This document shows positions 56-57,988 of a stretch of 64,000 nt of DNA, in pieces; within the stretch, counting starts at the first letter, position 1, and each line of letters begins with the position of its first letter. The position numbers were made by a program, and so were the translations under genes. A model generated the notes under the pieces. The model saw only the letters and a list, made by a program, of their open reading frames with translations, was not told where the DNA came from and did no database searches. Source of the DNA: Ostreococcus lucimarinus (taxonomy: Eukaryota); assembly GCA_000092065.1 (NCBI GenBank), contig CP000601.1; one strand, given 5' to 3'.

Positions 56-3000
56 ATGGTCGAACTCACGATCGTCCCGTCGTGGGACGGTAAGGGCGTC
101 ACCTGGCGCCCGATATTCGACGACGACGAGGAGGCTTTCGCGGCGTACACGCACGCGTGCGAGTACGCGAAGAGCGGACGCGGGAAGTGCGGGAAGTGCG
201 GGGAAAAGGTGCGGCGAATCGACGAATCGACGCGAAGAGAAGAGAAAAAAGACTGACGACGAGGGGTTCGGATCGGCGACGAAGATCGCGAAGGACGCGG
301 TGCGAATCGGGGAACCGCTCAAGTATCGCGGCGGCGATTACGGATGGATATCGAAGTGGATGCATCCGGAGTGTTATCGCGCGGAGGGAGTCACGAGGGA
401 GGAGCTGGAGACGCGCGTGCACGGGTTGGACGCGCTGAAGGATGGGGATCGGGAGGTGTTGCTGGCGACGGTGCTGTCGCCGGATCGGCCGGAGATCGAG
501 AACACGGCGTTGGACGTGACGAGCGAGGAGTTTTTGCGTCGGCCGGCGGTGGAACCGATGGAGGCGCCGCGGGCGTTGACGCGGCCGTTGTTGGGGTTTC
601 AGCGCGAGGGGTTGCGGTGGATGTGCGATAACGAGAGCGGCGATGCGAAGGGGGGGATATTGGCGGATGAGATGGGGATGGGGAAGACGATACAGTGCAT
701 ATCGATGTTGCTGGCGAGGAAGGAGGCGTGGATGCGAGACCGCGCCGAGGTGGGGGAGATGGTGACGGACGACGACAGACCGCCGCCGACGCTCGTGGTG
801 GTGCCGACGTCGGCGCTCGTTCAGTGGGAAGAAGAGATCAAATCGTGCGTCGAGGAAGGGTCGCTGCGCGTGTTTGTGTATTACGCTGATCGCGCAAACG
901 TCGTGGAAGGAGACTTTAAAGGATACGACGTCGTGTTGACGACGTATCCCGTCGTCGAAGCCGAGTGGCGGAAAATCATCAACCGACACTTGACGGCGTG
1001 TCAGTGGTGTGGGAAAAAGTACTTACCTCGCTCCATGGTGACGCACTTGAAGTACTTCTGTGGACCAGACGCCGTGCGCACGGAAAAACTCGCGCGGCGC
1101 GAGGTGACGCGCGACGTGGCGAACGAAAAAGCCATGCGCACGCTGAAAATCAAGCCGGGCAGCGCCAAGGACGTGAAGAAGGGGATTCCCACGATGGCGA
1201 ACGTATACAAGGAACTCATGGCGATGGCCGGACGGGAGACGCTGAGCATGTATGATGGCGCGCACAAGGCGCGCGCACGCGCGGCTTCAGGTCTCGCCCC
1301 GGGCGGCGACGTCGTCGTCGTCAAGGAGGAAGTTGAAGACGGCGTCGCCGAGCCGAGCGAAGTTCTGAAAGCTTTGATTTCGCAGCTTCCAGTGCCGACG
1401 ATTGTAGTTGAGAATATCAAAGAGGAGTCGATTGAGGAGAAAGAAAAAGAGGTCGAGTCAGTGAACGAGCCCGCCTTGGCTGACGCGTCAACGGCGGCGA
1501 TAGCGAGTACGGTGAAGAAGGCGCAGAAGCGCAAGTCGAAGGCTTCGGGTAAAGCGACTTCGACTTCGAGCGCAAAGAAAAAGAAGAAGAGTCTGCGCGA
1601 AGCTAGCGACGGCGAGGCTGAAAGTGATTACAAACCGGACAGTGATAGCGAAGATGATGAGATCATATTAGTCGACGATAGCGAGAGCGAAGATAGAAAG
1701 CCAAAGAAGAAACAGAAGAAAAAGAAAACGCCGGCGAAAACCGAGGAAGCGGACGACGTGAAGGCGTCCAACATCGACGACATTCCGCAAACCTCGCAAG
1801 GTGGTTCGCAAGGTGGGAGCCAGTTTGAAGACGAAGACGACGTAGATTTGTCGGATTCCCTTCTTCATCGCACGCAGTGGCACCGAATCGTTCTCGACGA
1901 AGCGCACAAGATCAAGGCGCGCACGAGCAACACCGCCAAGTGTATCTACGCTTTGAAATCCACGTATAAGTGGTGTTTGACAGGTACACCGTTGCAGAAT
2001 CGAATCGGCGATCTTTACAGCTTGGTGAGATTTTTGCGTATGGATCCGTACGCGTTTTACTTTTGTTCGACGAAGGGTTGCGAGTGCAAAACGCTCACCT
2101 GGAACTTCGGTCCTCAGGCGCGATTTTGTACCAACTGCGGATGCGGCGCTCCTAGGCATTATTCGCATTTCAATCGCACCGTGCTAAACCCGATCAACCG
2201 TTATGGCTACATCGGTGACGGCAAGAAAGCGATGCTGACTCTTAGAAATGACATTTTGTTGCCGATGCAACTTCGCCGGACCAAGGCGGAACGCGCCGAG
2301 GACGTGCGACTGCCGGACTTGAAGATTATCATTCAAGAAAACACATTCAATGAGGTTGAACAAGACTTTTACGAGTCTCTGTACATGCTGACGCGCTCGA
2401 AGTTCGACGCGTTCGTGAAGAAAGGGAGCGTTTTGCACAACTACGCACACGTCTTCGAGCTCCTCGCACGACTGCGACAAGCGTGCGATCATCCGTACTT
2501 GGTGATTCATTCGAAGAGTGCGAACGTGAAAAAAGACGCCCCTGACGCGCCGAAAGTTGAATCCCCGGCAGACACCGACGTTCCGAAGCATTATTGTGGC
2601 ATGTGTCAGGACGAAATTGAGGAAGAAGACGCGGCTCTGGCGAATTGCAAACACATTTTCCATCGTGAGTGCATCATGCAATACGCGTCTTGTGCGCCTG
2701 CGGATGGCAAAAAAGTGACTTGTCCCGTCTGTCGCACGGCGTTGACGATTGACTTCTCTCCAGAAAGTCTCGAAAACGTCAAGAGTGCCATTAGTCGTAA
2801 TTTCAAGGATGCGCTACCAGACAAGTCAATTCTCAACAAGCTCGATCTCACGCAGTACACGTCGAGCACAAAGGTTGAGACGCTCGTTAACGCTCTGCGA
2901 GACATGCGTAATCAAGAAAATGGGCACTTAAACAAAGCCATCGTGTTTTCGCAGTACACAGCCATGATAGAAATCGTCGAATGGCGTTTGAAAAAGGCCA

Positions 3001-3392
3001 AGTTTACCATCGCCAAGCTTCTCGGTTCCATGCCGGTCACGCAACGCGCGGCGAATTTGCAAGCTTTCCGAGAAGATCCAAACGTCAGCGTGATCTTGAT
3101 GAGTCTCAAATCTGGCGGTGAAGGACTCAACTTGCAAGCGGCGAATTACGTATACGTTCTTGAGCCATGGTGGAACCCAGCGGTGGAAATGCAAGCCGTG
3201 ATGCGCGCACATCGCATCGGGCAGCTTCGACCGGTGACCGCTGTTCGATTTTCGACCAAAGGCACGATTGAAGAACGCATGATGGAGCTTCAAGAAAAGA
3301 AGCAGCTTGTGTTCGAAGGGTGTATGGACGGCAATCAAGCCGCGCTTTCTCAACTGACTGCCGAAGACTTGCAATTTTTGTTCAAGCGATGA
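56..3392 (+). CDS. SNF2-family DNA-dependent ATPase with C3HC4 RING finger (Rad16/Rad5 class), fused to an N-terminal PARP-type zinc finger. Predicted 2 exons, 56..208 and 294..3392. The gene may start upstream of the window, because frame 2 is open from base 2.
   Basis: Helicase motif I is GILADEMGMGKT, motif II is DEAHKIK and motif III is LTGTPLQN. A Cys cluster (CSTKGCECK...CTNCGCG) is inserted between the helicase lobes. The RING is CGMCQDE...CKHIFHRECI...CPVCRTAL. The C-terminal helicase lobe is LKSGGEGLNLQAANYVYVLEPWWNP...QAVMRAHRIGQ. The upstream ORF 56..256 encodes ACEYAKSGRGKCGKCGEK, the first half of a zf-PARP. Its second half (RIGEPLKYRGGDYGWISKWMHPECY) lies in the main ORF frame. 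Confidence 0.75.
209..293 (+). other. Predicted spliceosomal intron (85 nt, phase 0) joining the two halves of the zf-PARP
   Basis: Donor is AAG|GTGCGGCGA at 209. Branch is GACTGACGACGAGGG at 251-265. Acceptor is GCGAAG| at 292-293. Splicing gives CGKCGEK|DAVRIGEPLKY...WMHPEC, i.e. C-x2-C-x26-H-x2-C. The frame-2 stop TGA lies inside the branch motif. Confidence 0.55.
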
Positions 3393-3477
3393 CGATGATG
3401 TATGGTATAATGACAAATTTGACCTATGTAGCTAAAACGCTGTAACGCTGTGATGTGAGCACTTTCTGTCATGGCTC

Positions 3478-5973: not shown

Positions 5974-6180
5974 CGCGCGCGCGCCGCGGGAAGTGCCGAC
6001 GGACGCGCGGCGTCACATCGCCGCGCCGACGCGCGCCGAGTCGCGCCGCGAGCGCGCCGCGCGTCGGAGCGACGCGCGCGCGACGCGCGCGCGTCGCGCG
6101 TCGACGCGCGTCCGCCGCGAGCGTCGAGCGACGCTCGGAAGCGACGCGAATTCGGGTTGGGATTCGGCGGCGGCGGTGCG

Positions 6181-23300: not shown

Positions 23301-24122
23301 ACGCCGGCCGCCTCGACGCCCCCGGGCACAAAAAGTACGATTCATCCGCCGCGATTCCCATCGCGCTTTCGTCCGTTTCGTACTCGATCTCAATCACGAT
23401 TTCCTTCTCCGTAGTCGCCGACGTCGACTCCCCGTTCGCCGCGCCTCGCGCTCGAGCCTCAATCTTCTCCCCGCTCACCGGCGCGATCACCACCTCCCTC
23501 GAGTGTTCCTCTCCGTCCAAGTTACTCTCAGACTCCAAATACGTCCGCACGTCTTTCGCCAGGCTCAACGCATCGCTCGGCGCCGTCTTCGTCCCGATCG
23601 TCGGTTTACTCGTCTTCGTCTTCGTCGCTCGACACTCCACGCCTGGCGCGCGTCGAATTCCATCCATCACCCGTCAGTCTCCCCGCTCGCGCCTCCTCTC
23701 GTCGCGGCGTCGCATCGCGTCGCATCGCATCGTTTGCATCGTTCGAATCGCTCGTCGTCGTCGTCGTCGTCGTCGCTTCGCCTCGCGCGTCTCGCACCGT
23801 TTATCGCGCACGACGCGATCTTCAACCCCTCGGCGCGAACCCGCGCGCCCGCGAACGCGCCGTCCGCGCCCGCGCACGTCAGCGTCGTCCTGCCGCGAAG
23901 CGCGCGTTTCGTGCGCCTCACGTCGACGTCGATGCGCTGATGCGTCACTCTGCGCGCGTCGTTTCGTCGATTCGTCGCGTCAGTCGGCGCGCCCTCGTCG
24001 CGTCATCATCGCGTCGTCGTCGCGCGTCGACGCGCGCGCGCGCGAGAGCGCGTCGGCGTAACGCACCGCGGGAATAACACGCCGCCGTCGTCGACGTCGC
24101 GCGTCGTCGCGCGCGACGCCAT
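20329..24122 (-). CDS. TAF2: Transcription initiation factor TFIID subunit 2 (TAF2), predicted 3 exons: 24067..24122, 23798..23949 and 20329..23642
   Basis: It has an aminopeptidase-N-like fold without HExxH (HIATAIARQWFGGVV...WVVEGLAQYLAG), a WFPCVE motif, C-terminal ARM/HEAT repeats and a KE-rich tail. Exons 1–2 restore the conserved N-terminus GGVLFPRVTHQRIDVDVRRTKRALRGRTTLT, which matches the plant [28 protein letters not shown]. Confidence 0.65.
23643..23797 (-). other. Predicted intron 2 of TAF2 (155 nt)
   Basis: Donor is AAACG|GTGCGAGACG. It contains a (GAC)8 run. Branch is GGGAGACTGACGGG and acceptor is GCGCCAG|GC. Confidence 0.5.
23950..24066 (-). other. Predicted intron 1 of TAF2 (117 nt)
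   Basis: Coding strand has donor CCGCG|GTGCGTTACG, branch GCCGACTGACGCGACG and acceptor CGCGCAG|AGTGACGCATCAG. Confidence 0.5.
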
Positions 24123-30514: not shown

Positions 30515-31263
30515 CTAAGGGAAATATTCGCGTTCTCGAAACGCGCTGGCGCCGAGCGCCATCGTGAGCTCTCTGGCGCGAGCGATATCCACGCCGGGCG
30601 TTCGCGTCGTCGTCGCCTCTACCTCCATCCCGAGTTCACTACATCGTTCAATGAACGCCAACGCGTCTCCTTGCGTCCTTCCGTCCCTCGGCGCCATGAT
30701 TCGCGCGTACTCATCCGGATCCGCGCTCGCAAAGTTAACCGTCACGCTTCGCAATCCGGCGTCCCGCAACGCGTCGCACACCGCCACATCCACCAGTCCA
30801 TTCGTCGCGACGCGCGTCGCGATTCCGTGTCTTCGCGCTCGTATCTCTCGCAGCGCGTCGCACAGCACGTCGTGGCGCAGCAACGGTTCGCCGTATCCCG
30901 CGAAGACGACGCCCGGGTCGCTCTCGCCGCTGCGCGCGTCGTCCAGAGTCACTTCTTTCGTCAGCGCGGGGTCCGATCGAGCGCGAGAGACGCTCGCGGG
31001 TGGAATCGAGCCGCGCGCGCGGTCGCGTCGACGCACCTGCTCGCGATGGGCGGCAGCGCGTCGTAGAAGGCGTCGATGACGTCGACGAGTTCAGCAGCCG
31101 TCGGCTCGGGCTCGGTCAGTAACTGAAACTTTGACGACGCCGGCATCGAGAACGCGGGTCCGCGGAGTCGCGTCAGCGGCGTCGCATTCGTTTGGTTGGT
31201 CAACGCGAGATACAACGCGCCGCGAAGGGTGTAGGCGACGCCCGGTCGCGCGAGGGACGCCAT
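30515..31263 (-). CDS. Radical-SAM-fold (TIM-barrel) protein lacking the CxxxCxxC triad. Predicted 2 exons, 31037..31263 and 30515..30929.
   Basis: Exon 2 carries GVVFAGYGEPLL...VATNGL...LRSVTVNF, which are radical SAM core motifs. Exon 1 has ALYLALTNQTNATPLTRL where CNLRCxYC is expected. The two ORF-track pieces (30961..31263 and 30515..31036) are in different frames and are joined by the intron. Confidence 0.5.
30930..31036 (-). other. Predicted intron (107 nt, phase 2)
   Basis: Donor is AGCAG|GTGCGTCGACG, branch is CCGCGCTGACGAAAG and acceptor is CGCGCAG|CGGCGAG. Splicing yields ...ALPPIAS-S-GESDPGVVFAGYGEPLL with a total coding length of 642 nt. Confidence 0.5.
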
Positions 31264-31359
31264 GATGTGCCGGGACGGCGGGCGGCGCGCGGCGAGACGC
31301 GAATTCGTTCGACCGGACTCGCTACAGAAGTCGCCGCGACGCGACGCTACGAGCTAAAA

Positions 31360-33927: not shown

Positions 33928-34147
33928 CTTCTTCAACGTTTCGCGCCTCGCGCGCGCGATCGGCGCTCGCGCGCGCGACTCGGACGCCATCAGACGCGCA
34001 CAAAGATACGTGTGCGCGTTCGCATCGCGCGTTCGAGCGCGCGCGAGGGCGCGCGCGTCGCGGAGTCGCGAATTTGTGACGAATTTCCGTTGACTCATCG
34101 GGACGATCTGCACTCGACGACGCGACGCGACGCGCGCGCGCGGCGAC

Positions 34148-37100
34148 ATGGCGCCGTTTCTCGGTGGTATGCGCGGCCTGACGGTGTTCGTGCAAGACGT
34201 GCGGAACTGCAGTAATAAGGTGCGGCGAGCGCGCGCGCGCGAGGGATGACGACGACGGGCGAGGGCATTCGATCGAACGAAACGACGCGCGGTGACGCGT
34301 TGAGCGGCGAGAGCGCGAGAGAGAGGCGCGCGGACTGACGACGAGGGTCGCGCGCGTCGCGAACGCGAACGCAGGAGCAAGAGCGCGCGCGCGTGGAGAA
34401 GGAACTGGCGAATATTCGACGGAAATTCAATAAGACCCACCGCGCGCTCACGGCGTACGAACGGAAAAAGTACGTGCTGAAGCTGCTGTACATATACATG
34501 CTCGGGTATAACGTGGACTTTGGACACACCGAGGCGCTGAAGTTGATATCGGCGTCGTCGTACGCGGAGAAACAGGTTGGGTACATGACGACGTCGGTGA
34601 TATTGAACGAGAGAAACGAGTTTTTGAGAATGGCCATCAATAGCATACGCACGGATGTGATCTCGAGCAATGAGACGAATCAGTGCTTGGGGTTGTCGTG
34701 CATCGCGAACGTCGGGGGGCGGGAGTTCGCGGATTCGTTAGCTGGGGACGTGGAGACGATTGTGATGACGCCGACGATTCGGCCGGTGGTTCGGAAAAAG
34801 GCGGCGCTGTGTCTGTTGAGGTTGTTTCGTAAGAATCCTGAAATTTTACTCGCGGAAACGTTCGCGTCAAAAATGACCGACTTACTCGACGCCGAGCGCG
34901 ATTTGGGGGTGCTCATGGGCGTCTTGGGTTTGTTGCTGGGTCTCGTGCAGCACGATTACCGAGGGTACGAGGCGTGCGTGCCCAAGGTCATCGCGTTGTT
35001 GGAACGATTGACGAGGAATAAGGACATTCCGCCCGAGTATTTGTACTACGGTATTCCCTCTCCATGGTTACAGGTGAAGTGCATGAAGATTTTGCAGTAC
35101 TTTCCCACACCAGACGATCAGGCGCTGCTCGATTCGCAGCTCATCGCCATGCGAAACATCCTCACCAAGACGGACACGGTGAAAAACTTCAATAAGAACA
35201 ATGCGCTGCACGCCATCTTGTTCGAGGCGATCAATTTAGTTACTAGCATGGACTACGCGCACGAACTGTTGGACCCGTGCGTGGAGATTCTCGGGAATTT
35301 TCTCGACATGAAGGAACCGAATATTCGCTACTTGGCTCTCAACACGCTCAACGCCCTCGCGGCGATGGCGGATTTGCGAGAAGCCATAAAGGTGTACCAA
35401 GAGCAAGTCGTGGCTGCGTTGCACGACGCGGACATTTCCATTCGTCGCCGCGCGTTGACTTTATTGTTTTCTATGTGCGATGCTTCCAACGTGCACTCTG
35501 TCATCGAGGAGCTCATCAAGTACTTCGTCACCGCTGATTTTGACATTCGCGAGGAACTGGCGCTCAAAACGGCCATCTTGGCCGAGCGCTACAGCGTGAA
35601 CGATCGCATGTGGTTCATTGAGATCGCGATGCAAATGATAGACAAGGCGGGCGATTTCATCAACGACGACTTGTGGCATCGCATGGTGCAAATCGCAACC
35701 AACGACGCGTCGCTTCACGGTCGCACGGCGCAATTGATGTTCGTCAAGTTGCGCGACGAGGGCGCGTCGAACGAACTCATGCTTCGCGCGATGTCGTACT
35801 GCATCGGAGAGTTTGGGTATTTGCTTCCCATTCCCGCGTCGCAGTACGTCGATCTCTTAGTGCCACTGTTCCAGGATACGGATGAGGTCACGCAGGGCAT
35901 CATGCTCACAGCCTTCGTCAAGGTTGCGATGCACAAGAATTGCGATCAGGCGTCGATGGGTAAGATCGTGAAGGTGTTCACCGACATGAGCTCATCGTTT
36001 GACGTCGAGTTGCAGCAACGTGCAAACGAATATCTGAAGCTCTTGCGTCTCGGACCGAACATGCGACCGATTCTCGAGCCCATGCCCGAGTACCCTGAAC
36101 GTTCGAGCGTGTTGGAGAAGCACATACAAGTAGAAAACGTCGCCTCGGACGTCGCCGCGGGAGTTCGTAAACTTGCCATGAGTGGTGTCGTGACGGCGAG
36201 AGAGCAACCCCGCGCTCAGGCGCGGTCGGCGCCGGCGCTTCCTGCAGCCGCAGCACCGCCGGTCGATGCCGTCACAGATTTGCTCGGCAACTTGATGGGC
36301 GACGGATCTTCGGCGCCGGCGGCGCTTCCGCCGTCGTCGACTGGGATGAATCTCGACGAGCTTCTCGGAAACGCCCCTCCCGCACTTCCAGCGGTAGAAG
36401 AGCGTCTCGCACTTCCGAGTTCCACGTCACCTCCCGCGGGGCCGGTGACGACCACATCGTCCGCAGACGCTTTAGACGATTTACTAGGCTTAGGCGCGCT
36501 CGCGGCGACGCAACCGCCGCCGGCGACGCACGGCGACGCCTTAGACGCCTTTGGAGCTCTGGGTGCGCCGGCGCCCGCGGCGCCGGCACCGACGCAACCC
36601 GTGGCACCGGTACAATCATTGACGTCGAGCGACGGTATTCAACCCACGGTGAACGTTCAAGACTGCGCGAAACGGTTCCTCATCGCCGACAACGGCTTGC
36701 TGTATGAAGACGCGAACGTACAGATTGGCGTGAAATCGCAGTGGCAAGGGTCTCAAGGTCGCGTGATGTTCTACGTTGGGAACAAGTCCGCGAGCGCGGA
36801 TCTGCAAAACTTCAGAATGGTCATACCGTCGATCGAAGGCTTGCGTCACAGTCTTCAACCCTTCCCCGCGTCCATCGGACCGAAGCGCCAGGTGCAGTTG
36901 ATGTTGCAAGTAGCGATTACGTCGGCGTTTGCCTCGGCGCCAAAACTCGAGTTTTCGTACACGTCCACCGCCGTCGCGGCGGCGTGTGCCAGGTCTCTGG
37001 AGTTGCCCGTACGTGTGACCAAGTTTTTGAGCCCGATGACCATCGCTTCGCCGCAAGAGTTCATCGCCAAGTGGCACCAGATGGCGTCCGCCGGGCAGCA

Positions 37101-37383
37101 ACAGAAAATTATGGACGTGTCGCAGCAGTACGCGACGAGCATCGAAAGCGTGTCAAACGCCTTCTCGGGCATGCGGCTCGTCGTACATAAAGGCTTAGAT
37201 CCAAACCCCGCAAACTTAATCGCGGGAAGCCGGTTCGTCGGCGAACGATGCGGTGAAGTCTTTGTGGGCGTTCGCGTGGAGAGCGACGCGAACGTGCGCG
37301 GACGATATAGATTCACCGTCGCTTCGATGGACGCCGTCGCGGCGGCTGCGGTCATGGATACGATCGTTACCGCACTCCAATAG
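34148..37383 (+). CDS. AP-2 adaptor complex subunit alpha (alpha-adaptin). Predicted 2 exons, 34148..34219 and 34375..37383.
   Basis: Exon 1 MAPFLGGMRGLTVFVQDVRNCSNK joins exon 2 EQERARVEKELANIRRKF. Together they match the metazoan [44 protein letters not shown]. An adaptin N-terminal trunk and a C-terminal appendage domain follow. Confidence 0.85.
34220..34374 (+). other. Predicted intron (155 nt, phase 0)
   Basis: Donor is AAG|GTGCGGCGAGCG, branch is CGGACTGACGACGAGGGTCG at 34332-34350, and acceptor is GAACGCAG|GAG. Confidence 0.7.
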
Positions 37384-37469
37384 AATAGCGCGAAAGGCTT
37401 TCTTTTCTTGTCAATTCTAAGTCGTCTCGTTCACAACATTTCTATATCGTCGCTTTCTATATCGTCGCT

Positions 37470-38337
37470 TTACTCGTTCAAGTCTCGCGGCGCCCCAGCG
37501 GCTCCCTCGACAGCCGCCCCCGCGTCGCGCCGCGCGCGTCGCGCCGCACGCGTTTGCACCCCATCCGTGTCGACTAATCTCTGCCGCGTACCGAACAAAG
37601 CGCACACGATTGCGGGCGTTTTCAACGGCTCCCTCCCCGTCATCTCCGGATACACGTCCTTCAAAAAGTAATACGCGTGTCCGGCGATCATTCCTAGCGC
37701 ATCCGTGATCGGCTGCGATCCGATCAAGGTGGAAAAAATCAGCAACACCCACGGTAAATACGGCGCCGTGAAGTTGAACAACCCCAAAAACGACATCTGC
37801 GTCGCCGCGTTTCTCCGTCCCCACACGTACACCATCATAAACGTCAGGCTCGTCCCCAAAAATTGCACGTTGACGAACGGCGCGAACGCCGTCAACAGCG
37901 TCCCCCCGAACAGCAGCATGTAAAAGAAATCGCACGACCGTCCCTGAAACGACCCTTCCTCGAGCATTCGACAGTACCGGCTCAGGAAGAACATGTGAAA
38001 CACGAAGTCGACGCCGAGCGAGCCGAAGAAGAAGAAATTCGTCACCAACCGCCACAGCTCGTACTCTTGAAATATCAGCTTACTGTTGAAGTACACGTTC
38101 AGCGGCGAGATCAACTGCGTCGAGTCGCGCGCGCGCGTCGTCAGTCTCCCGCCGTTCGCGCGCGTCGCCCCCTTCGCCGCGCGAATCGAATCTTCGTCGC
38201 TCGGCGTCGAATCCAATCGAGCGCTTCCGTCGACGCACCTCGAGCGCGCAGCCCACGGTGACGGCGAACGTCAGCGTGAGGTACATGCGCGTCACCGTCG
38301 GCACGCTCGCGTACCACTCCTCGAGCGTGTTCGCCAT
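37470..38337 (-). CDS. Derlin (Der1-like ERAD component). Predicted 2 exons, 38239..38337 and 37470..38114.
   Basis: Exon 1 MANTLEEWYASVPTVTRMYLTLTFAVTVGCALE joins exon 2 LISPLNVYFNSKLIFQEYELWRLVTNFFFFG...YCRMLEEGSFQGRSCDFFYMLLFGG. This matches Derlin-2 MAYQS..[57 protein letters not shown]. Confidence 0.85.
38115..38238 (-). other. Predicted intron (124 nt, phase 0)
   Basis: Donor is GAG|GTGCGTCGACGG, branch is GGGAGACTGACGACGCG and acceptor is CGACGCAG|TTG. Confidence 0.7.
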
Positions 38338-38436
38338 CGCGCGCGTCGCGCACTGTCGCGAACCGTCGCCGTCGGGACGAGACGAGCGGGACGACGACGA
38401 CGACACTTTACGACGACGCGCGCGGCGCGACGCGCC

Positions 38437-40047
38437 ATGGGCGGCGGACGCGACAAGCGGAAGAAAGTGGCGAAGAAGCTCGGCAAGGTGAGCGCGGATA
38501 AGCGTACGGGGGCGACGAAGACGGCGCTGAAACGAGAGAAGAATGCGGAAAAAAATCACAGACGGCTGGAGAGAGGACTGGTGGAGGATGACATCGACGC
38601 TATTTTAGCCGCGATGGCGATAGAGGACGCGCGGCGCGCGGAGGTGGAGGTGGAGAAGGATTGCCCGCGACCGCAGGCGCGAGGACACGCGTCGCTGACG
38701 GCGACTGTGGTTGGGAGAGGGAATGAGTTGATTTTGTACGGCGGCGAACGCGTGACGCCGGGGGATGAAAAATGCGTCGTGTACGGTGATTTGTATCGAT
38801 ACGACGTCGACCGCGATCGATGGACGAAGGTATCGAACGCGAAAGGACCGCATCCGAGGTCGGGACATCAGGCGTTGGCGTACGGGGGGTACGTGTACGT
38901 GTTCGGGGGAGAGTTTACGTCGCCGAATCAAGAGCGGTTTTTACACCATCGCGACTGCTGGAGATTTGATTTGGAGAGTAACATTTGGGAGGCAATGCCG
39001 GCGAAGGGAGGGCCAAGCGCGCGGTCGGGGCATAGGATGGCGATTTGGGGGAAGAAGGCGATCTTATTCGGCGGGTTTTACGACACTGGACGCGAGGTTC
39101 GGTATTACAACGACGCGTGGGAGTACGATTTCGAGAAGAGCGAGTGGAAGTGTCGGTGCGCGGGGGGCGAGGGAGCGCTCGGACCGAGTCCGCGCAGCGC
39201 GTGTCACGTGGGCGTGCACGATGACGCGTTCATCGTGTACGGAGGGTATTGTAAAAACGTTGACAACGACGGCGACGCCGACGAGGATCGTAGCGAACGC
39301 GGGACGACGTTTTCAGACGCTTGGAAGTTAGATTTAAAGACGTGGCGATGGGAAAAGCTGAAGCGACAAGGATTAGCGCCGAGCGCGCGCGCAGGGGCGT
39401 CGAGTGCGATGCACGCGTTGAAGAAGCGTTTAGTGTTGTTCGGCGGCGTCGTGGATCACGAGGTCAAGCGCGGCGACGTCATCGTCTCTGAGTTCTTCAC
39501 CGACGCGTACAACTTGAACATGGAGGCCAAGAAATGGTTCCCTGTCACCTTGTACGGCGAAGATAAGACGAAAACACACAAAGCGGGGAGCTTGGAAGAG
39601 GCCGAGCGCGTCGCCGCCGGGGACGTGGTGAACGAAAACTTTAATATTCGCAGCGAGGCGCACCGGGCGGCGATTAAGATTCAAGCTCACTTTCGCGGTT
39701 ATCAAGTTCGCAAGGCGTACAAGCTATACAAGGTCGGTGGCGTCGTGAGCGAGTTGCTGTACTCACCCGGAAGTGGAGAGGCGCCGCCGAAATCCCTCCC
39801 GAAACCTCGCGGACGAATCAACGCCGCCATAGCGATCAAGGCGAATAGCATGTACTTGTTCGGCGGCGTCGTCGAGCTCGGCGACGTAGAAGTTTCCCTC
39901 GACGACGTGTGGAAACTCGATCTCGGTAATCGTCCGAAATGGACGTGCATCACACCACTCAGCGACGAAGTGTCCGCACAACTCGCCGGCGGCGGCGCGG
40001 AATCCGATTCCGATTCCGACGACGGTTCGGGCTCCGACTCGGCGTGA
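38437..40047 (+). CDS. Kelch-domain-containing protein 4 (KLHDC4)-like, with a basic N-terminus and C-terminal IQ-like and acidic tail
   Basis: MGGGRDKRKKVAKKLGKVS parallels KLHDC4 MGKKGKKEKKGRGAEKT. Six Kelch blades are present (LILYGGE, GYVYVFGGEF, AILFGGFYD, FIVYGGY, LVLFGGV, MYLFGGV). The ATG at 38437 lies 99 bp from the Derlin ATG on the opposite strand. Confidence 0.75.
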   Translation: MGGGRDKRKKVAKKLGKVSADKRTGATKTALKREKNAEKNHRRLERGLVEDDIDAILAAMAIEDARRAEVEVEKDCPRPQARGHASLTATVVGRGNELILYGGERVTPGDEKCVVYGDLYRYDVDRDRWTKVSNAKGPHPRSGHQALAYGGYVYVFGGEFTSPNQERFLHHRDCWRFDLESNIWEAMPAKGGPSARSGHRMAIWGKKAILFGGFYDTGREVRYYNDAWEYDFEKSEWKCRCAGGEGALGPSPRSACHVGVHDDAFIVYGGYCKNVDNDGDADEDRSERGTTFSDAWKLDLKTWRWEKLKRQGLAPSARAGASSAMHALKKRLVLFGGVVDHEVKRGDVIVSEFFTDAYNLNMEAKKWFPVTLYGEDKTKTHKAGSLEEAERVAAGDVVNENFNIRSEAHRAAIKIQAHFRGYQVRKAYKLYKVGGVVSELLYSPGSGEAPPKSLPKPRGRINAAIAIKANSMYLFGGVVELGDVEVSLDDVWKLDLGNRPKWTCITPLSDEVSAQLAGGGAESDSDSDDGSGSDSA

Positions 40048-40438
40048 CTGCGAATCCGACGCCCCGTCGATCGACGGCGAAACCCGTCGGCGCGCGCCGC
40101 GCGCGCGGCGCCCGCGCCAAAAGTTGTAATATCACGTTACTCAAGCACCCTCGCGAACGCAACCGCGCGCTTCCGCACCGAATCCGTCGAATGTGGTTCT
40201 CGCGAGCCAGAGGGGGAAGGAACCGCGAGGACGGGGTCCCGCGCGTCAAACACCGCCGCCTCGCATCGCCGCGAACGCACCGTAAACGCGCCACGCGCGC
40301 GTCGGGCGATAGTACGCGTCGTGTTGAAAGCTCAACCGCGCGCGCGCGCGTGGCGCGCGTCGGTGCGCGACGCTCGTCGACGTAACGACCCCGCGGCATT
40401 CCGCAAATTCGCGAAATTCGGTGCAAAACCGACGCGGA

Positions 40439-48771: not shown

Positions 48772-48836
48772 CGACGTTTCGCCGTCTTTCGCGCGCGTCG
48801 CGCGGCGATTCCGCGCGCCGACGCCGCGCGCGCCCG

Positions 48837-51807: not shown

Positions 51808-51984
51808 TCGCGCGACGCGCCTCGGTTTCAACGCTAAGACCGCGCATTCGTTCCTTCGCGTCTCCGTCCCTCTCGCGCGTTCGCTCGCGGCGTCGCCCGT
51901 CGTCCATCGCCGCGCCATCGCGCGCCACTCCGCGCCCCTGCCGCGCGCGCGCGGCGCGCACGGCGACGCCCGGGTCGAGCGCGC

Positions 51985-52926: not shown

Positions 52927-53063
52927 TCGCGTCGCGCTTCGAAGCGAGGCGCGTCGTGTTTAACGTTATTGTGCAGTTGTGATTGATTTGTTGTTGTTTA
53001 CCGCTACGAGACGCCCCGAAGGTTGTCCGCGCCGCGTCCATCTACGACTACGCCTACGACTAA

Positions 53064-54383
53064 TCAGTACTGCTCCGCGAACACGACGTCATCGCTGCGA
53101 TAGTTCTTCTTCTTCTTCTTCAGTCTCACGTTCAGGATCAAGTGCACTTTGCGATTGAGCGCGCGCTCGAGCATCGCTCTGGCGTTGATGCCGATTCGCC
53201 CGACGACTTCGCCCGACTTTCCGACGACTATTTTCCTCTGCGACGCGGTGTCGACTAAAATATTTTGCTCTATGCGCGCGTCACCGTTTCTAAAGTCTTC
53301 CCACGAGACGTGCGCGATGTCGATGCCGTACGGTAAATCTTCGTGCACGCCGTCGTACACGCTCTCGCGCACGATTTCCAGCGCCCTCTGCGCCGGCGTC
53401 ATATCGCTCGTCGACGTCGCGTCGAACTCCCACGGCGCCTCCCGAGCGCCGGCGACGATGTGATCCATCAGCGCTCTCGTTCCCGCCCCCGTGAGCGCGC
53501 TGACGGGAAACACGCGCGCGAATTCAAAATCCCCCGCGGCGCGGAAATCGTCCACCATCTTCGTCAACCCCGCGCGTCGCTCCTTCGGAATCTTATCAAC
53601 CTTATTCAGCACCAGCACCGCCTCCGGCGGCGCGCGCATCTCCCCCAGCGCCGCTCGCGTCTTTCGCACCGCCTCCAGCACGCGCAAATCCCGTCGCTCC
53701 AACTGTCTCGCCGCGTCCACGACGAAGACCAACGCGTCGCACTCGCTCGCCAGCGCCGTCGCGTCCTCCACCTTTCTCGCGTGCGCCGCGTTCCTGTAGT
53801 GCTCGCGCCCCACGATCCCCGGCGCGTCCACGAACACCACCTGCGCGTCCCCGACCGTGCGCACCCCCAGCGCGCGCGTCCGCGTCGTGTTCGTCTTTCG
53901 ACTCACCGCGCTCACCGCGTCGCCGACGAGCGCGCACGCCAGCGCGCTCTTCCCCGCGTTCGGCGCGCCCAGCACGCCGACCCGCGACAACTTTTCGACG
54001 CGACGCGCGCCGTCGTCGCGGTACGCGCCGTCGCGCGCGTCCGCGCGCGCCGTCGCGTCCCACGCGCGCGCTCGCCGCGCCGCCGCCGCCGCCGCCGCGC
54101 GCGTCGACCGCGCGATCGCCGCCGCCACCGCCGCGCGTCGACGCTTCGACTCCAGGTACGACGACGACGGCGCGCACCGCGACGACGTCGTCCCGTCGCA
54201 CGCGCCGCGCGCGCGCGCGCCGCGACGCCACCGCGACGCCGGCATCGACGACGACGTCGATTCGCGCCCTTCGCCGCCGCCGACGCGCGGCGCGGCGTCC
54301 GCGACCGCCGACGCGCCGCGCGCGGGTCGCGACGCGTTCGACGCGCCCGCGACGACGCGACGAAGCGCGCGCGACGCCGACAT
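53064..54383 (-). CDS. Era-type GTPase (organellar ribosome assembly) with a C-terminal KH domain
   Basis: G1 GAPNAGKS, G3 VDAPGIV, G4 LNKVDKI, and a KH-like C-terminus KIVVGKSGEVVGRIGINAR. The start is taken at MSASRALRRVVAG (ATG 54383). The upstream part of the 622-aa ORF is Arg-rich low-complexity. Confidence 0.8.
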   Translation of the reverse strand: MSASRALRRVVAGASNASRPARGASAVADAAPRVGGGEGRESTSSSMPASRWRRGARARGACDGTTSSRCAPSSSYLESKRRRAAVAAAIARSTRAAAAAAARRARAWDATARADARDGAYRDDGARRVEKLSRVGVLGAPNAGKSALACALVGDAVSAVSRKTNTTRTRALGVRTVGDAQVVFVDAPGIVGREHYRNAAHARKVEDATALASECDALVFVVDAARQLERRDLRVLEAVRKTRAALGEMRAPPEAVLVLNKVDKIPKERRAGLTKMVDDFRAAGDFEFARVFPVSALTGAGTRALMDHIVAGAREAPWEFDATSTSDMTPAQRALEIVRESVYDGVHEDLPYGIDIAHVSWEDFRNGDARIEQNILVDTASQRKIVVGKSGEVVGRIGINARAMLERALNRKVHLILNVRLKKKKKNYRSDDVVFAEQY

Positions 54384-55171
54384 CGCGACGCACGAACGCG
54401 AATCGATTCGATCCTCGCGCGGCACTGTGCCGCGCGCGTCGACCGCGCCGCGATGCGCGTCGCGCGCGCGGACGTCGCGACGACGAGCGAAGACGCCGCG
54501 ACGACGGCGACGACCTCGATCGACGCGGCGAAACCGCCCTCGACGGCGACGCGGCGCCGCGAGCTGGACAAAGCCGAGAAGAAGGCGCGGCGAATGGCCG
54601 AGATCGACGCGTTCTTGCGAGCGCGCGAAGTCGCCGCGGCGCGCGAAGACGCGTCGCGGGATGACGCGGACGGCGACGCGTCGAACGGCGCGGCTCGACG
54701 ACGCGAAAACGAAAAGAAAAAGAAACCGACCGCCGCGGCCGACGGCGTCGCCGCCGCGGCCGACGGCGCGCGCGTCTCGCGCGAGTGGTTCGCCGCCTTC
54801 GCCGTCGTCGCGTTCTTCGCCGTCGTCGGCGGCGCGTATTCCTTGTATTCTTTCGTCGCGCGCGTGGCGTCGCGCGCGTTCGCGTCGTAGCGTCGTCAGG
54901 CGTCGCGCGCGTTCGCGTCGTAGCGTTGGCAACGACCAAACGAAAATCCGCGCCCATCGGTTCCCGACTCGTCGCGCGTTCCGAGACCGCCGAGAATCGG
55001 CGCGTTCCGATACCGCCGAGGATCGAATCGACGAAAATCGACGCGGCGCGTCGCCGCGCGAGCGGTCGCGGTCGACGCCGCGCCGCAGTTCGCGACGTGC
55101 GCTCGGGGTGGGCGTCTCCGGACAGTCGGCGCGGCCACCTCGCGCGCGACGTCCGAGACGCGCGCGGGCGC

Positions 55172-55768
55172 ATGTGCCTGATCACGGACGAACACGGGAA
55201 CGCGCTTCCGGCGCTCGCGCGGTCGCCGGCGATGGGAACGTCGTCGAGCCGGGTGAAGGTGCCCTCGCCGCGGCGAGACGCGGCGGCGCGACGGGACGTC
55301 GCGAGCGCGCCGGCGTCGCCGCGCCGCGCGCGACGCGCGCCGAAGCGCGAGGACGCGAACGCGCGCGTCGAGTTTCGTCCGCGCGCGGTCTCGCGCGACG
55401 CGCGAAAGCACCGGCGCGCGAAGAGCGAAGAGGCGCGCGCGCGGGACGTCCCGAGACGAGAACGAGAACGAGAACGAGAACGCGCGGGGACGCTTTTCCA
55501 AGATTTCGACGCGCTCGGGATCGAACGGCGCGACGATTCGTCGGAATCGTCGCGCGCGGACGAGGGCGAACGACGCGCGAAGCCTCGCGTGGGTTACGCC
55601 TCGGTGGCGCCGATGAAGGAAATTCTACAGACCCGCGGGGGCTCCGCGCTCGAGGCGCTCGGGATTTTATTTCGAGATTCCGATCGAGAATTCGAGCGCG
55701 CGGCGGCGACGACGACGCCGTCGAGCGATGATTATTCTCGTCGTCTATCCTCGCGAGACGCGCTGTGA
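55172..55768 (+). CDS. Hypothetical Arg/Ser-rich disordered protein. Very uncertain.
   Basis: It is the only less low-complexity reading frame in the 1.6-kb CGC-rich stretch between the Era and WW genes (MCLITDEHGNALPALARSPAM...MKEILQTRGGSALEALGILFRDSDREFERA). No domain is recognised. Confidence 0.2.
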   Translation: MCLITDEHGNALPALARSPAMGTSSSRVKVPSPRRDAAARRDVASAPASPRRARRAPKREDANARVEFRPRAVSRDARKHRRAKSEEARARDVPRRERERERERAGTLFQDFDALGIERRDDSSESSRADEGERRAKPRVGYASVAPMKEILQTRGGSALEALGILFRDSDREFERAAATTTPSSDDYSRRLSSRDAL

Positions 55769-55993
55769 TGCGGACCGGTCGCGCGTCGGCGAAACATTTT
55801 TTGAGTGAAATTTGGTCGGAACGGCGAGGACGCCGTCGAGGTCGGCGTCCCGTCGCGAACTCGCGACGCGCTCACGAAACCATCCCGCGATGCACCCACG
55901 AAACCATTCTTTTGTAACAACAGCGCGCTACGAGATCCACGCGCGTTCGCGCCATCCGCGCGATCGATCGCGTCTTTAAAGAACCGCTCGCGA

Positions 55994-56371
55994 TCAACCG
56001 AACGCGATTCTCGCCGCGACGGCGACCGCCGCGAAACCGAGGGACGCGCCCGCGCCCATCGCGAACGCCGACCCGATCTGCGTCCCGATTCCCTCGCGCG
56101 CGGACGCGCCTGGATCGTCCGCTAAAAATTCCGTCGCGGGGCGCGGCGCGCCGACCGCGGAGGTTTCGCCGGTGCGAGGATTCCAAAAGTACACGCGCCG
56201 CGTCTCGCGGTCCACCACCGGTCGCCAAGGATTGGCGTCCGACGACGACGACGACGACGCGACGTCGCTCGAGTCGCGGCGGACGACGTCTTTGCCCGCG
56301 CCGGACGCGAACGCGCGCGCGTCGGCGACGCGCGGGACGAGGCGCGCGAGGCGACGGAGGGGCGGGGACAT
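55994..56371 (-). CDS. Small WW-domain protein with a presequence-like N-terminus and a C-terminal hydrophobic anchor
   Basis: NPWRPVVDRETRRVYFWNPRTGETS matches the WW core (W...R.Y[YF].N..T.ET). The C-terminal anchor is GSAFAMGAGASLGFAAVAVAARIAF. The ORF-track start (56443) is a TTG; the first ATG is at 56371 (MSPPLRRLARLVPRV). Confidence 0.3.
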   Translation of the reverse strand: MSPPLRRLARLVPRVADARAFASGAGKDVVRRDSSDVASSSSSSDANPWRPVVDRETRRVYFWNPRTGETSAVGAPRPATEFLADDPGASAREGIGTQIGSAFAMGAGASLGFAAVAVAARIAFG

Positions 56372-56450
56372 CGCGCGCGCGAGGCGAAGTGACGCGAGGG
56401 ACGCGGCGCGGCGCGAACTATACCGGTGCGTTGACGATGACAAATTGTCG

Positions 56451-57988
56451 TTAATACGCCTGCGCCTGGGTGTTGGCCAACACGGCTTGCGTGAGGGCGG
56501 TGGTCTTGGACAGCAAGGCTTTGGTCTTTTCGATGATTTGCTCGTTGACGGATTTCTTCTCGACGTGCACGTGCACGAAGCCGGCTTCGGAATCGATTCG
56601 CGCGTTGAGCTTACTGCCGCGGATGAGAGTCGCGATGGTGGCCTCGACGTCGGCGGCGGGCATACCGAGCATTTGCGCCAAGTTGGCGATGTCGATGCGC
56701 TTGTTCACCTTGCAGTAGTTTTCGATGACGTACTGTCGAGCGTTTTCGTCAAACGCGTCCTTGCAGCCGATTAAAAAGAAATCCTTTTCAATCATCGCGT
56801 CGCACTTCTTCAGCATCTCTTGCGTCTTGGAGAAGTCGTAGTCGACGAAGGCCGCGACGACGAAGTCGAGCGCGGGATCGTCGTACACGTCGCTCTGGAT
56901 AATCTTCACTAAGTCTTTGAGCATGTTGCGGCGCTTCTTGTTGGCGACGATGGCGACGGCGAGGTAACGCAACAAATGCGGCGCCTCTTGTTGCACCGCT
57001 TGCATGTATCGCTCCTGGAACAACACGTCGATGATCAAGTTGCGACCGTTCGGGTGGTTGAAGAAGACGAACAGGGCGTAATGCAACAACCACGCGCGCT
57101 GCTTCATCTTGACGAGGTTGCTCGTGCTCGCGTTGCTCTCCAACGCGTCTCGCAACCTATTCATGTCGTCCAGAGCCCCGCCCCAGTTCCGCAACAAAAT
57201 GTCCGCCGCGAACTTCCCCCACAGCGCGCTCTCGCACCGCTCGTTGTCCGCGCTCAACAACTGCACCGCGCCCAAGTGCTCCGAGGCGTTTTCGTAATCG
57301 CCGCACTCGTACTCAAACTTGGCAAACTTGTACAGCGCGTCCACGTCCGCGCTCGTCACCCCGTGATTATCCTCCGCGAACTTCGCGTTCGCCGCCTTAT
57401 CCCGTCGCAAGTTCTTGATCAGCGCCCCATCGCTCGCGAACTTCACCGCCCGCGCCGCCGCCTTCCCCAGCGCCGCGTGCGCCTCCACCGTCGCGTCCCG
57501 CCTCGCCTTCGCCTCCGCCGCCGATCCCGACCCGCTCGCCTCCGCGCGCGCCTCCTCCGCCCAATCGCACATCTTCGTCTTCACCAGCGTCGCCAGCTTC
57601 GCCTCTCGCAGCGACTTCGCATCGTGCGTGCCCTCCGCGAGCGCGAACTCCAGCAGCGGCAGCGTCAGGTGCGCGTCCAGCCGCGCCGCGATCTGCGTCG
57701 TCGTCCCGCGCTCCGTCAGTCCTCGCGCTCGACCGCGGCGCGTCGGCCCTTCGCGTCCGCGACGCGTTCGCGATGCGTTACTCTTCGCCCGCGTCCTCGC
57801 GCGTCCGCCGCCGTCGCGCGCGCCGCGTCGCCGTCGCGATCGCGCAAACCCTGCCGCCGCCGCGTCGCCGCGTTCGCGTTCGCCGTCCGCTCGTCGCGTC
57901 GCCGCCCGTCGTCTCCCGTCGTCTCCCGTCGCGCGTCGCGTCGCGCTCGCGTCGCGTCGCGTCGCACCGTCGACGTCAGGTCGCGCAT
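56451..57988 (-). CDS. EIF3E: Eukaryotic translation initiation factor 3 subunit E (eIF3e/Int6). Predicted 2 exons, 57968..57988 and 56451..57692.
   Basis: The spliced N-terminus MRDLTST|IAARLDAHLTLPLLEFALAEG matches human [26 protein letters not shown]. The PCI domain and conserved core follow (YKFAKFEYECGDYENASEHL...WGKFAADILLRNW...WLLHYALFVFFNHPNGRNLIIDVLF). Exon 1 is the ORF-track ORF 57716..57988, which begins MRDLTST. Confidence 0.9.
57693..57967 (-). other. Predicted intron (275 nt, phase 0)
   Basis: Donor is ACG|GTGCGACGCGACG, branch is GCGAGGACTGACGGAGCG and acceptor is GACGACGCAG|ATC. Confidence 0.7.

What the first reader, a model, noticed from the sequence alone, without database searches (positions are those of the whole stretch)
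209..57967. Hidden 5'-proximal introns with an almost invariant GTGCG donor and (G)ACTGACG branch site
The eight introns at 209-293, 23643-23797, 23950-24066, 30930-31036, 34220-34374, 38115-38238 and 57693-57967 are invisible in an ORF-only view. Each falls within the first ~70 codons of its gene. All begin GTGCG[G/A/T] (three begin GTGCGGCGA, two GTGCGTCGACG). All carry (G)ACTGACG 25-37 nt upstream of a (C)AG acceptor, which is mostly GCGCAG. Splicing them restores conserved N-termini of eIF3e, AP-2 alpha, Derlin-2 and TAF2. Signals this uniform, together with a strong 5' position bias and 85-275 nt lengths, are the signature of an intron-poor genome with a streamlined spliceosome. They also suggest intron loss by reverse-transcript-mediated conversion.
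Basis: partly seen in the sequence, partly recalled or inferred. Interest (0 to 1): 0.8.

Follow-up and report, generated by a model that had tools for sequence, protein, structure and literature searches.

The report
Known Ostreococcus introns with uniform signals
The window comes from the tiny green alga Ostreococcus lucimarinus, and the listed intervals are real but ordinary introns whose unusually uniform splice signals were described for this species in 2008.

Summary
The window is Ostreococcus lucimarinus CCE9901 nuclear DNA. The finding says eight introns but lists seven intervals. All seven start GTGCG and end AG on the stated strand. Six carry GACTGACG and one carries GCTGACG, with the branch A 23-37 nt before the acceptor. 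Removing them joins short ATG-initiated first exons to long ORFs. The joined proteins align without gaps across the junction to AP-2 alpha, eIF3e and Derlin, and complete a zf-PARP domain. Corrections: the first intron most likely ends at 284, not 293. GTGCGGCGA starts two introns, not three. GCGCAG ends two of seven (CGCAG five of seven). GenBank protein models already splice five of the seven. Intron-less contigs in public read assemblies carry the exact Derlin and radical-SAM junctions. The two TAF2 introns are missing from the GenBank model. A related Ostreococcus contig supports them, with the same GT/AG positions and different intron lengths. The whole pattern is published: GTGCGTG donor, (G)ACTGACG branch, CGCAG acceptor and a 20-35 nt branch-to-AG distance (Irimia & Roy 2008). 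The 5' bias is published for Micromonas (Verhelst 2013). An unmodified U1 snRNA is reported in a 2022 preprint. Verdict: real, correctly interpreted in the main, already known, low interest.

The parts
209..284 (+). Intron of the RAD16-like zf-PARP/SNF2/RING gene. Donor AAG|GTGCGGCGA, branch AGACTGACG, acceptor GACGAAG. Phase 0 after codon 51.
   Evidence: The GenBank XP_001421157 protein equals the 209-284 splice exactly. zf-PARP scores 55.4 bits against 39.5 bits for the 293 acceptor. Features.
56..208 (+). Exon 1 of the RAD16-like gene (51 codons, first half of the zf-PARP finger). Exon 2 runs 285-3392.
23950..24066 (-). TAF2 intron 1, 117 nt. Donor GCG|GTGCGTTAC, branch CGACTGACG, acceptor CGCGCAG. 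Phase 2 after codon 18. Absent from the GenBank model.
   Evidence: Relative L011 has GT and CAG at the homologous positions, with an intron of 121 nt instead of 117.
23643..23797 (-). TAF2 intron 2, 155 nt. Donor ACG|GTGCGAGAC, branch AGACTGACG, acceptor GCGCCAG. Phase 1 after codon 69. The GenBank model XP_001421003 starts at an ATG (23667) inside this intron.
   Evidence: Relative L011 has GTGCGT, GACTGACG and CAG at homologous positions, with an intron of 113 nt.
24067..24122 (-). TAF2 exon 1 (MASRATTRDVDDGGVLFP + 2 nt). Exon 2 runs 23798-23949 and exon 3 runs 20329-23642.
   Evidence: Exon 1 end (VLFPR) and exon 2 are conserved in L011, and the spliced ORF is intact in both species.
30930..31036 (-). 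Intron of a small radical-SAM-like gene, 107 nt. Donor CAG|GTGCGTCGACG, branch GCGCTGACG (the one without ACTGACG), acceptor CGCGCAG. Phase 2 after codon 75 (codon 36 with the GenBank start).
   Evidence: The exact 40-nt spliced junction is present in five intron-less public contigs, L001-L005. GenBank XP_001421002 uses the same junction.
31037..31263 (-). Exon 1 of the radical-SAM-like gene. Exon 2 runs 30515-30929.
34220..34374 (+). AP-2 alpha intron, 155 nt, with stops in all three frames. Donor AAG|GTGCGGCGA, branch GGACTGACG, acceptor AACGCAG. Phase 0 after codon 24.
   Evidence: Ungapped alignment to mammalian AP-2 alpha-2 across K24|E25. GenBank XP_001421149 and XP_001422806 use the same junction. 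It is retained in contigs L008 and L009.
34148..34219 (+). AP-2 alpha exon 1 (MAPFLGGMRGLTVFVQDVRNCSNK). Exon 2 runs 34375-37383.
38115..38238 (-). Derlin intron, 124 nt. Donor GAG|GTGCGTCGACG, branch AGACTGACG, acceptor GACGCAG. Phase 0 after codon 33.
   Evidence: GenBank XP_001421000 equals the spliced model. The exact junction is present in intron-less contigs L006-L009. Ungapped alignment to human Derlin-1. The DER1 profile is covered 1-190 of 191.
38239..38337 (-). Derlin exon 1 (33 codons). Exon 2 runs 37470-38114.
57693..57967 (-). eIF3e intron, 275 nt, 78% G+C. Donor ACG|GTGCGACGC, branch GGACTGACG, acceptor GACGCAG. Phase 0 after codon 7.
   Evidence: GenBank XP_001420993 equals the spliced model. 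The eIF3_N profile is covered 1-132 of 133 from residue 3. Ungapped alignment to human eIF3e. Environmental variants have introns of about 276 and 285 nt. No Rfam match inside.
57968..57988 (-). eIF3e exon 1 (MRDLTST). Exon 2 runs 56451-57692.

Best explanation
The seven intervals are canonical U2-type (GT-AG) spliceosomal introns of six nuclear genes of Ostreococcus lucimarinus. They carry the strong, lineage-specific splice-signal consensus already described for the bulk (non-outlier) genome of this alga and its relatives. That consensus is an exon|GTGCG(T) donor, a (G)ACTGACG branch site and a (CG)CAG acceptor 20-35 nt downstream, with no polypyrimidine tract.

Mechanism (inferred from general spliceosome knowledge, not tested here):
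- U2 snRNA pairs with ACUGAC and bulges the A.
- The first AG far enough downstream of the branch is used. This predicts 284 rather than 293 in the first gene.
- The donor is recognised by a U1 snRNP whose RNA is reported to be unmodified although +3G and +4C pair poorly with it.

Removal of each intron fuses a short 5' exon (7-76 codons) to the main ORF. The 5' clustering fits the known pattern of intron-poor genomes. Its cause is not resolved by these data. It could be 3'-biased loss through reverse-transcribed mRNA, or selective retention of expression-enhancing 5' introns.
For: Organism: exact protein matches to O. lucimarinus CCE9901 records.

Signals. Six of the 8 ACTGACG copies in the window lie in the 1,009 intron nucleotides.

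Frame and homology:
- Pfam DER1, eIF3_N and zf-PARP are covered from profile position 1 only after splicing.
- Alignments to solved AP-2 alpha, eIF3e and Derlin-1 chains run ungapped across the junctions.

Existing annotation: GenBank models contain 5 of the 7 junctions.

Excision: the exact predicted 40-nt junctions are present in nine intron-less contig loci (eight distinct contigs) assembled from eight SRA runs. The intron-containing form is called on 515-556 contigs.

Comparative evidence:
- In a relative with about 64% protein identity, both TAF2 introns keep GT and AG at the homologous positions. Their lengths change (121 against 117 nt, 113 against 155 nt) and the spliced ORF stays open.
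- Environmental variants change the intron length of eIF3e and RAD16-like while the exons stay fixed.

Literature:
- PMC2483917 reports, for EST-confirmed non-chromosome-2 introns of this species, 87% ACTGAC, 66.5% GACTGACG, donor consensus GTGCGTG, a CGCAG acceptor preference and a branch-to-AG distance of 20-35 bp.
- PMC3879977 reports AG|GTGCGT and NCTGAC for canonical introns (shown in Micromonas) and a 5' positional bias.
- bioRxiv 10.1101/2022.06.08.495308 reports a standard U1 pairing region in the Mamiellales it examined.
Against: - No library metadata were available, so the intron-less contigs are not proven to be RNA.
- Two of those contigs retain the AP-2 alpha intron while lacking the Derlin intron.
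- Exact-junction scans of JGI metagenome contigs for AP-2 alpha and eIF3e found nothing.
- The TAF2 N-terminal extension has no detectable similarity to solved TAF2 proteins.
- The motif combination alone is only about 3-fold over a Markov expectation.
- The 5' bias (Fisher P 1.3e-4) rests on seven introns that were found by looking at N-termini.
Confidence: 0.93

Rival explanations
1. Some of the intervals are not introns. The genes are single-exon, translation starts at a downstream ATG (as in the GenBank TAF2 model that begins MDGIRRAPG), and the upstream 'exons' are chance open frames in G+C-rich DNA.
For: GenBank models TAF2 as a single 1112-aa ORF. Long chance ORFs are common in this 62% G+C window. 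TAF2 residues 1-170 have no hit to solved TAF2.
Against: For five genes, conserved domains are cut by the interval and restored by splicing. For TAF2, exons 1 and 2 are conserved as protein in a relative while the intervening DNA diverges and changes length. The GT and AG positions are kept, and the reading frames differ between species unless the introns are spliced.
Confidence: 0.04
2. The introns are copies of a mobile intron family (introner-like elements, as in Micromonas). This would explain the shared GTGCGGCGA and GTGCGTCGACG starts and the GACTGACG motif.
For: The Micromonas IE-C elements carry the same GACTGACG branch motif (PMC3879977). Two pairs of introns share 9-11 nt at the 5' end. 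Two introns are both 155 nt long.
Against: Intron interiors show no similarity beyond composition: 20 of 21 pairs have z below 2. The one pair at z 2.7 aligns only through GACGAC-type low-complexity runs, and its branch motifs do not align. Both TAF2 introns sit at conserved positions in a diverged relative. Lengths range from 76 to 275 nt.
Confidence: 0.02
3. The intron-less public contigs are genomic DNA. Natural O. lucimarinus-like populations would then be polymorphic for precise loss of the Derlin and radical-SAM introns, which would be live evidence of reverse-transcript-mediated intron loss.
For: Contigs L008 and L009 span several genes on both strands and two divergent promoters. They lack the Derlin intron but keep the AP-2 alpha intron with intact signals. 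L008 ends exactly at the radical-SAM exon 1/intron boundary, as expected at an assembly-graph branch between two alleles.
Against: Intron-containing ORF calls are about 100 times commoner (515-556 contigs up to 140 kb, against 4-5 contigs of at most 9.4 kb). Two contigs end 41 and 61 nt after the stop codon of the spliced gene, as an mRNA 3' end would. Overlapping transcripts on opposite strands are documented in this species (PMC2367439). A spliced/unspliced mix in RNA gives the same graph branch.
Confidence: 0.05
4. The 5' clustering reflects selective retention of promoter-proximal introns that enhance expression, rather than 3'-biased loss through cDNA recombination.
For: In this species, intron number and density correlate positively with expression, which the authors read as a functional role for retained introns (PMC2367439). 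All seven introns lie within 21-227 nt of the start codon.
Against: Nothing in the window discriminates the two. The genes concerned (TAF2, AP-2 alpha, a RAD16-like repair gene) are not obviously highly expressed. The two explanations are not exclusive.
Confidence: 0.35

Closest known systems
EST-confirmed non-chromosome-2 introns of Ostreococcus lucimarinus (Irimia & Roy 2008, PLoS Genet 4:e1000148, PMC2483917)
   Same: Same species. Same donor (GTGCGTG consensus; GTGCG in 7 of 7 here). Same branch motif (published 87% ACTGAC and 66.5% GACTGACG; 6 of 7 here). Same acceptor preference (CGCAG; 5 of 7 here). Same branch-to-AG distance (20-35 bp; 21-34 nt here from motif end to AG, using acceptor 284). 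Same interpretation as the constrained signals of an intron-poor genome.
   Different: Nothing in kind. The paper gives genome-wide statistics, not these loci. The two TAF2 introns are not in the GenBank gene model that such surveys started from.
Canonical introns of Mamiellophyceae (Verhelst, Van de Peer & Rouze 2013, GBE 5:2393, PMC3879977)
   Same: [quoted passage not shown]
   Different: In Micromonas the branch is reported 43-52 bp from the acceptor. Here the branch A lies 23-37 nt from it.
Intron-poor eukaryotes with homogenised signals and 5'-biased introns (for example Saccharomyces: GTATGT, TACTAAC)
   Same: Few introns (6 of about 30 genes here), near-invariant donor and branch motifs, and introns close to the start codon.
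   Different: Different motif sequences. G+C-rich introns (56-78%). No polypyrimidine tract (pyrimidines 37.5% between branch and AG). Donor +3G/+4C without a compensating U1 change, according to bioRxiv 10.1101/2022.06.08.495308.
Micromonas introner elements (IE-A to IE-D)
   Same: IE-C shares the GACTGACG branch motif.
   Different: Introner elements are repeat families with alignable interiors at novel positions. These seven introns share no interior similarity, and at least two are at conserved positions.

Membership tests
Canonical (bulk-genome) Mamiellophyceae U2-type spliceosomal introns | GT...AG boundaries interrupting a protein-coding frame, whose removal restores a continuous conserved protein | tested here: met
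   All 7 are GT-AG. Spliced products are covered from profile position 1 for DER1, eIF3_N and zf-PARP. They align ungapped to solved AP-2 alpha, eIF3e and Derlin. TAF2 is supported by a congeneric relative only.
Canonical (bulk-genome) Mamiellophyceae U2-type spliceosomal introns | Donor consensus GTGCGT(G) | tested here: met
   GTGCG in 7 of 7. Position +6 is T in 3, G in 2 and A in 2. Published consensus in PMC2483917 and PMC3879977.
Canonical (bulk-genome) Mamiellophyceae U2-type spliceosomal introns | (G)ACTGAC(G) branch motif 20-35 nt before a (CG)CAG acceptor | tested here: met
   GACTGACG in 6 of 7 and GCTGACG in 1. Motif end to AG is 21-34 nt (using acceptor 284). CGCAG in 5 of 7.
Canonical (bulk-genome) Mamiellophyceae U2-type spliceosomal introns | Lies in the high-G+C bulk genome, not the low-G+C outlier region (chromosome 2 / BOC) | tested here: met
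   The window is 62% G+C with no low-G+C block. Introns are 56-78% G+C and 76-275 nt long. The chromosome number itself was not determined.
Canonical (bulk-genome) Mamiellophyceae U2-type spliceosomal introns | Excised from transcripts | tested here: inconclusive
   Exact intron-less junctions for Derlin and radical-SAM occur in contigs assembled from SRA runs, but the library type is unknown. AP-2 alpha is retained in two of those contigs. There are no transcript data for RAD16-like, TAF2 or eIF3e. ESTs confirm the class genome-wide (PMC2483917).
Canonical (bulk-genome) Mamiellophyceae U2-type spliceosomal introns | Unique sequence with no similarity to other introns | tested here: met
   Pairwise local alignment of interiors against shuffles gives z of at most 2.7, mostly below 1.
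Introner elements (repeat introns, Micromonas type) | Members of a family with conserved, alignable internal sequence | tested here: not met
Outlier-chromosome (BOC1 / chromosome 2) introns | Short (below 75 nt), A+T-rich, with weak donor and no branch motif | tested here: not met
   Lengths 76-275 nt, G+C 56-78%, strong motifs.
U12-type (minor spliceosome) introns | [AG]TATCCTT donor and TCCTTAAC branch close to the 3' end | tested here: not met
   Donors are GTGCG and branches are CTGACG.

The most novel reading that the evidence does not exclude
The intron-less contigs (Derlin, radical-SAM) are genomic rather than transcript assemblies. Wild O. lucimarinus-like populations would then segregate precise intron deletions at two loci within one 64-kb stretch. 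That would catch reverse-transcript-mediated intron loss in progress in a genome already near the lower limit of intron content.
Probability: 0.05. Interest if true: 0.6.

Novelty: already known. Interest (0 to 1): 0.1.

Why it matters
It matters little beyond annotation. The signal uniformity, the atypical GTGCG donor, the GACTGACG branch, the CGCAG acceptor, the branch-to-AG spacing and their link to intron poverty were published for this very species in 2008. The 5' bias (shown in Micromonas) and the unmodified U1 snRNA in Mamiellales were published later.

The practical yield is twofold. First, the GenBank TAF2 model (XP_001421003) probably lacks about 70 N-terminal residues encoded by two unannotated exons. 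The case also confirms that a motif-aware reader can recover Mamiellophyceae introns from raw sequence.

Tried and rejected
- Motif-only significance. ACTGACG is not over-represented in the window as a whole (8 copies against 9-11 expected), and the donor/branch/AG triple is only about 3-fold enriched. I therefore relied on frame restoration and homology instead.
- Search for an eighth intron. A relaxed CTGAC plus GTGCG scan and inspection of the other GTGCGGCGA sites (46558 and 10318 on the minus strand) gave nothing convincing. Pfam on about 30 ORFs showed contiguous domains and no split genes.
- Exact spliced-junction scans of JGI metagenome contigs for AP-2 alpha and eIF3e gave 0 hits.
- TAF2 N-terminus:
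  - The word-indexed homologue search returned only ORF fragments.
  - The exhaustive representative search with the exon-2 peptide returned only a read-through ORF and low-complexity hits.
  - phmmer against PDB gave no hit to the first 170 residues.
  - Pfam at E up to 10 gave only a weak Peptidase_M1_N hit, at profile positions 84-156 for O. lucimarinus and 129-165 for the relative.
- Intron-hosted RNAs. There is no Rfam family in the window at gathering score, nor in the 275-nt eIF3e intron at E up to 1.
- Introner-like repeat hypothesis: rejected.
- SRA run identifiers could not be traced in the paper library. The Palenik et al. 2007 genome paper is not held.

Full report
**Source of the window.** Exact look-up of spliced protein models built from the window returned Ostreococcus lucimarinus CCE9901 proteins on a 528,469-bp record. 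The matches were Derlin XP_001421000, eIF3e XP_001420993 and a RAD16-like zf-PARP/SNF2 protein XP_001421157. The window is 62% G+C with no low-G+C block. It is tiled by about 30 mostly single-exon genes.

**Observation.** The finding announces eight introns but lists seven intervals.
- All seven begin GTGCG[G/A/T] and end AG on the implied strand.
- Six contain GACTGACG. Interval 30930-31036 has GCGCTGACG instead.
- The branch A lies 23-37 nt before the intron end.
- Lengths are 85 (76 after correction) to 275 nt.
- The positions are codons 7, 19, 24, 33, 51, 69 and 76.
- GTGCGGCGA starts two of the listed introns, not three. GTGCGTCGACG starts two.
- GCGCAG ends two and CGCAG ends five. The first intron ends AAG.

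**Chance.**
- ACTGACG is not enriched in the window overall: 8 copies on both strands against 9-11 expected from Markov models. The donor/branch/AG combination alone occurs 7 times against about 2 expected.
- The signal lies in the placement. Six of the eight copies fall in the 1,009 intron nucleotides (binomial P about 7e-12). Every interval sits just upstream of a long ORF on the same strand.

**Are they introns?** Splicing joins an ATG-initiated short exon to the long ORF in every case.
- After splicing, Pfam covers DER1 1-190 of 191, eIF3_N 1-132 of 133 and zf-PARP 1-83 of 87.
- phmmer alignments run without a gap across the junctions of three proteins. These are mammalian AP-2 alpha-2 (GMRGLTVFVQDVRNCSNK|EQERARVEKELANIRRKF), human eIF3e (DLTST|IAARLD) and human Derlin-1.
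- GenBank models already contain five of the seven junctions. Derlin, eIF3e and RAD16-like match exactly. The radical-SAM model XP_001421002 has the same junction with a later ATG. AP-2 alpha XP_001421149 and XP_001422806 have the same K24|E25 junction.
- For the RAD16-like gene the GenBank protein corresponds to an acceptor at 284, not 293. The 284 model keeps the residues IAK and scores 55.4 against 39.5 bits on zf-PARP. Position 284 is also the first AG at a workable distance from the branch.

**Excision.** Eight distinct contigs (loci L001-L005 and L007-L009; L006 is part of the L009 contig), assembled from eight public sequencing runs, are 99.2-99.9% identical to the window.
- They carry the exact predicted 40-nt junctions with the intron missing. 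Five do so for the radical-SAM gene and three for Derlin.
- The intron-containing ORF calls of the same genes occur on 515-556 contigs up to 140 kb.
- Two of the intron-less contigs end 41 and 61 nt after the stop codon of the spliced gene.
- I read them as transcript assemblies, but I could not retrieve the library type.
- One oddity remains. L008 and L009 lack the Derlin intron yet keep the AP-2 alpha intron with intact signals. L008 stops exactly at the exon 1/intron boundary of the radical-SAM gene.

**TAF2.** The GenBank model (1112 aa) starts at an ATG inside the second proposed intron. These two introns are therefore not annotated.
- A contig from a related Ostreococcus (L011, about 64% protein identity) keeps GT and AG at the homologous positions of both introns. 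Intron 1 has GTACGC and TTGACG. Intron 2 has GTGCGT and GACTGACG.
- The intron lengths differ (121 against 117 nt, 113 against 155 nt). Exon 2 differs by three codons.
- Splicing gives an open frame in both species, with conserved exon peptides: VLFPR|VT[HR]QR[IV]DV...LRG.TTL.CA...AEGLKI...NG|[VI]ECRAT.
- Similarity to human or yeast TAF2 starts only at residue 173. The 'conserved N-terminus' is therefore shown within the genus only.
- Environmental variants also change the lengths of the eIF3e and RAD16-like introns while leaving the exons unchanged.

**Rivals.**
- The introns are not repeat (introner-like) elements. Their interiors have no similarity beyond composition.
- They are not of the short A+T-rich outlier-chromosome type or of the U12 type.
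- No Rfam family lies in the window or in the longest intron.

**What is known.**
- Irimia & Roy 2008 (PMC2483917, section 'The Peculiar Case of Ostreococcus' and the acceptor section) studied 319 EST-confirmed non-chromosome-2 introns of this species. They report:
  - 87.2% with ACTGAC and 66.5% with GACTGACG;
  - a 4.8-bit 5' splice site with the atypical consensus GTGCGTG;
  - a CGCAG acceptor preference;
  - a branch-to-AG distance of about 20-35 bp.
  They interpret this as the constrained-signal state of intron-poor genomes.
- Verhelst et al. 2013 (PMC3879977) give AG|GTGCGT and NCTGAC for canonical introns (in Micromonas). They note a 5' positional bias ascribed to 3' intron loss.
- Roy & Bowser 2022 (bioRxiv 10.1101/2022.06.08.495308) found the standard U1 pairing region in the Mamiellales they examined, so there is no compensatory change.
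- Lanier et al. 2008 (PMC2367439) report 16-20% of genes with introns, overlapping transcripts on opposite strands, and a positive intron-expression correlation. Here 6 of about 30 genes have introns.

**Verdict.** Both the pattern and most of the individual introns are already public. The evolutionary inference (cDNA-mediated 3' loss) is a standard hypothesis that this window cannot test. The 5' clustering is significant for these seven (Fisher P 1.3e-4) but is subject to ascertainment. Selective retention of 5' introns is an equally viable cause. Novelty: already known. Interest: low.

Noticed in passing
window 31037-40359 (loci L008, L009): Public assembled contigs lack the Derlin intron exactly but retain the AP-2 alpha intron with intact splice signals. 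L008 ends exactly at the radical-SAM exon 1/intron boundary (31037). This means either differential splicing or antisense coverage in RNA assemblies, or intron presence/absence polymorphism in DNA.
   Followed up: partly
window about 20300-58000, against 1-3400: TAF2, radical-SAM, AP-2 alpha, Derlin and eIF3e proteins each carry two GenBank accessions on two O. lucimarinus records (528,469 and 321,799 bp). The RAD16-like protein has one. Most of the window seems to be part of a near-identical segmental duplication whose boundary lies between 3.4 and 20.3 kb.
   Followed up: no
window 34148-37383 (AP-2 alpha): The two GenBank AP-2 alpha models of the duplicated copies remove different in-frame pieces of the Ala/Pro-rich hinge (residues 627-658 against 653-686). 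Both lack the last 16 residues. The contigs L008 and L009 show no gap there. These are probably annotation artefacts.
   Followed up: partly
window 20329-24122, minus strand (TAF2): The GenBank TAF2 model XP_001421003 starts at ATG 23667, between the branch site and acceptor of intron 2. It probably lacks about 70 N-terminal residues encoded by two upstream exons.
   Followed up: yes
window 30515-31263, minus strand: The radical-SAM-like protein has no cysteine before residue 99 and so has no CxxxCxxC cluster motif. It matches only positions 47-151 of the Pfam Radical_SAM profile. It may be a degenerate, non-catalytic relative.
   Followed up: no
whole window, both strands: Outside the introns ACTGACG occurs only twice (60792 on the plus strand, 9036 on the minus strand), against 9-11 expected from Markov models (Poisson P 0.002-0.005). 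This may be avoidance of cryptic branch sites. The null model ignores codon structure.
   Followed up: partly
the seven introns, branch site to acceptor: The stretch between branch motif and AG is purine- and G+C-rich (pyrimidines 37.5%, T about 8%). There is no polypyrimidine tract.
   Followed up: partly
window about 54400-56450: This stretch is 72% G+C with long overlapping ORFs on both strands and no Pfam match. It lies upstream of an Era-like GTPase gene (53067-54383, or up to 54932, minus strand), and its gene content is unresolved.
   Followed up: no
window 57693-57967 and 209-284 (proteins P0024, P0030, P0060): Environmental relatives have eIF3e introns of about 276 and 285 nt and a longer RAD16-like intron. 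These happen to be open in frame, so prokaryote-style gene callers translate straight through them. This is intron-length polymorphism with invariant exons.
   Followed up: partly
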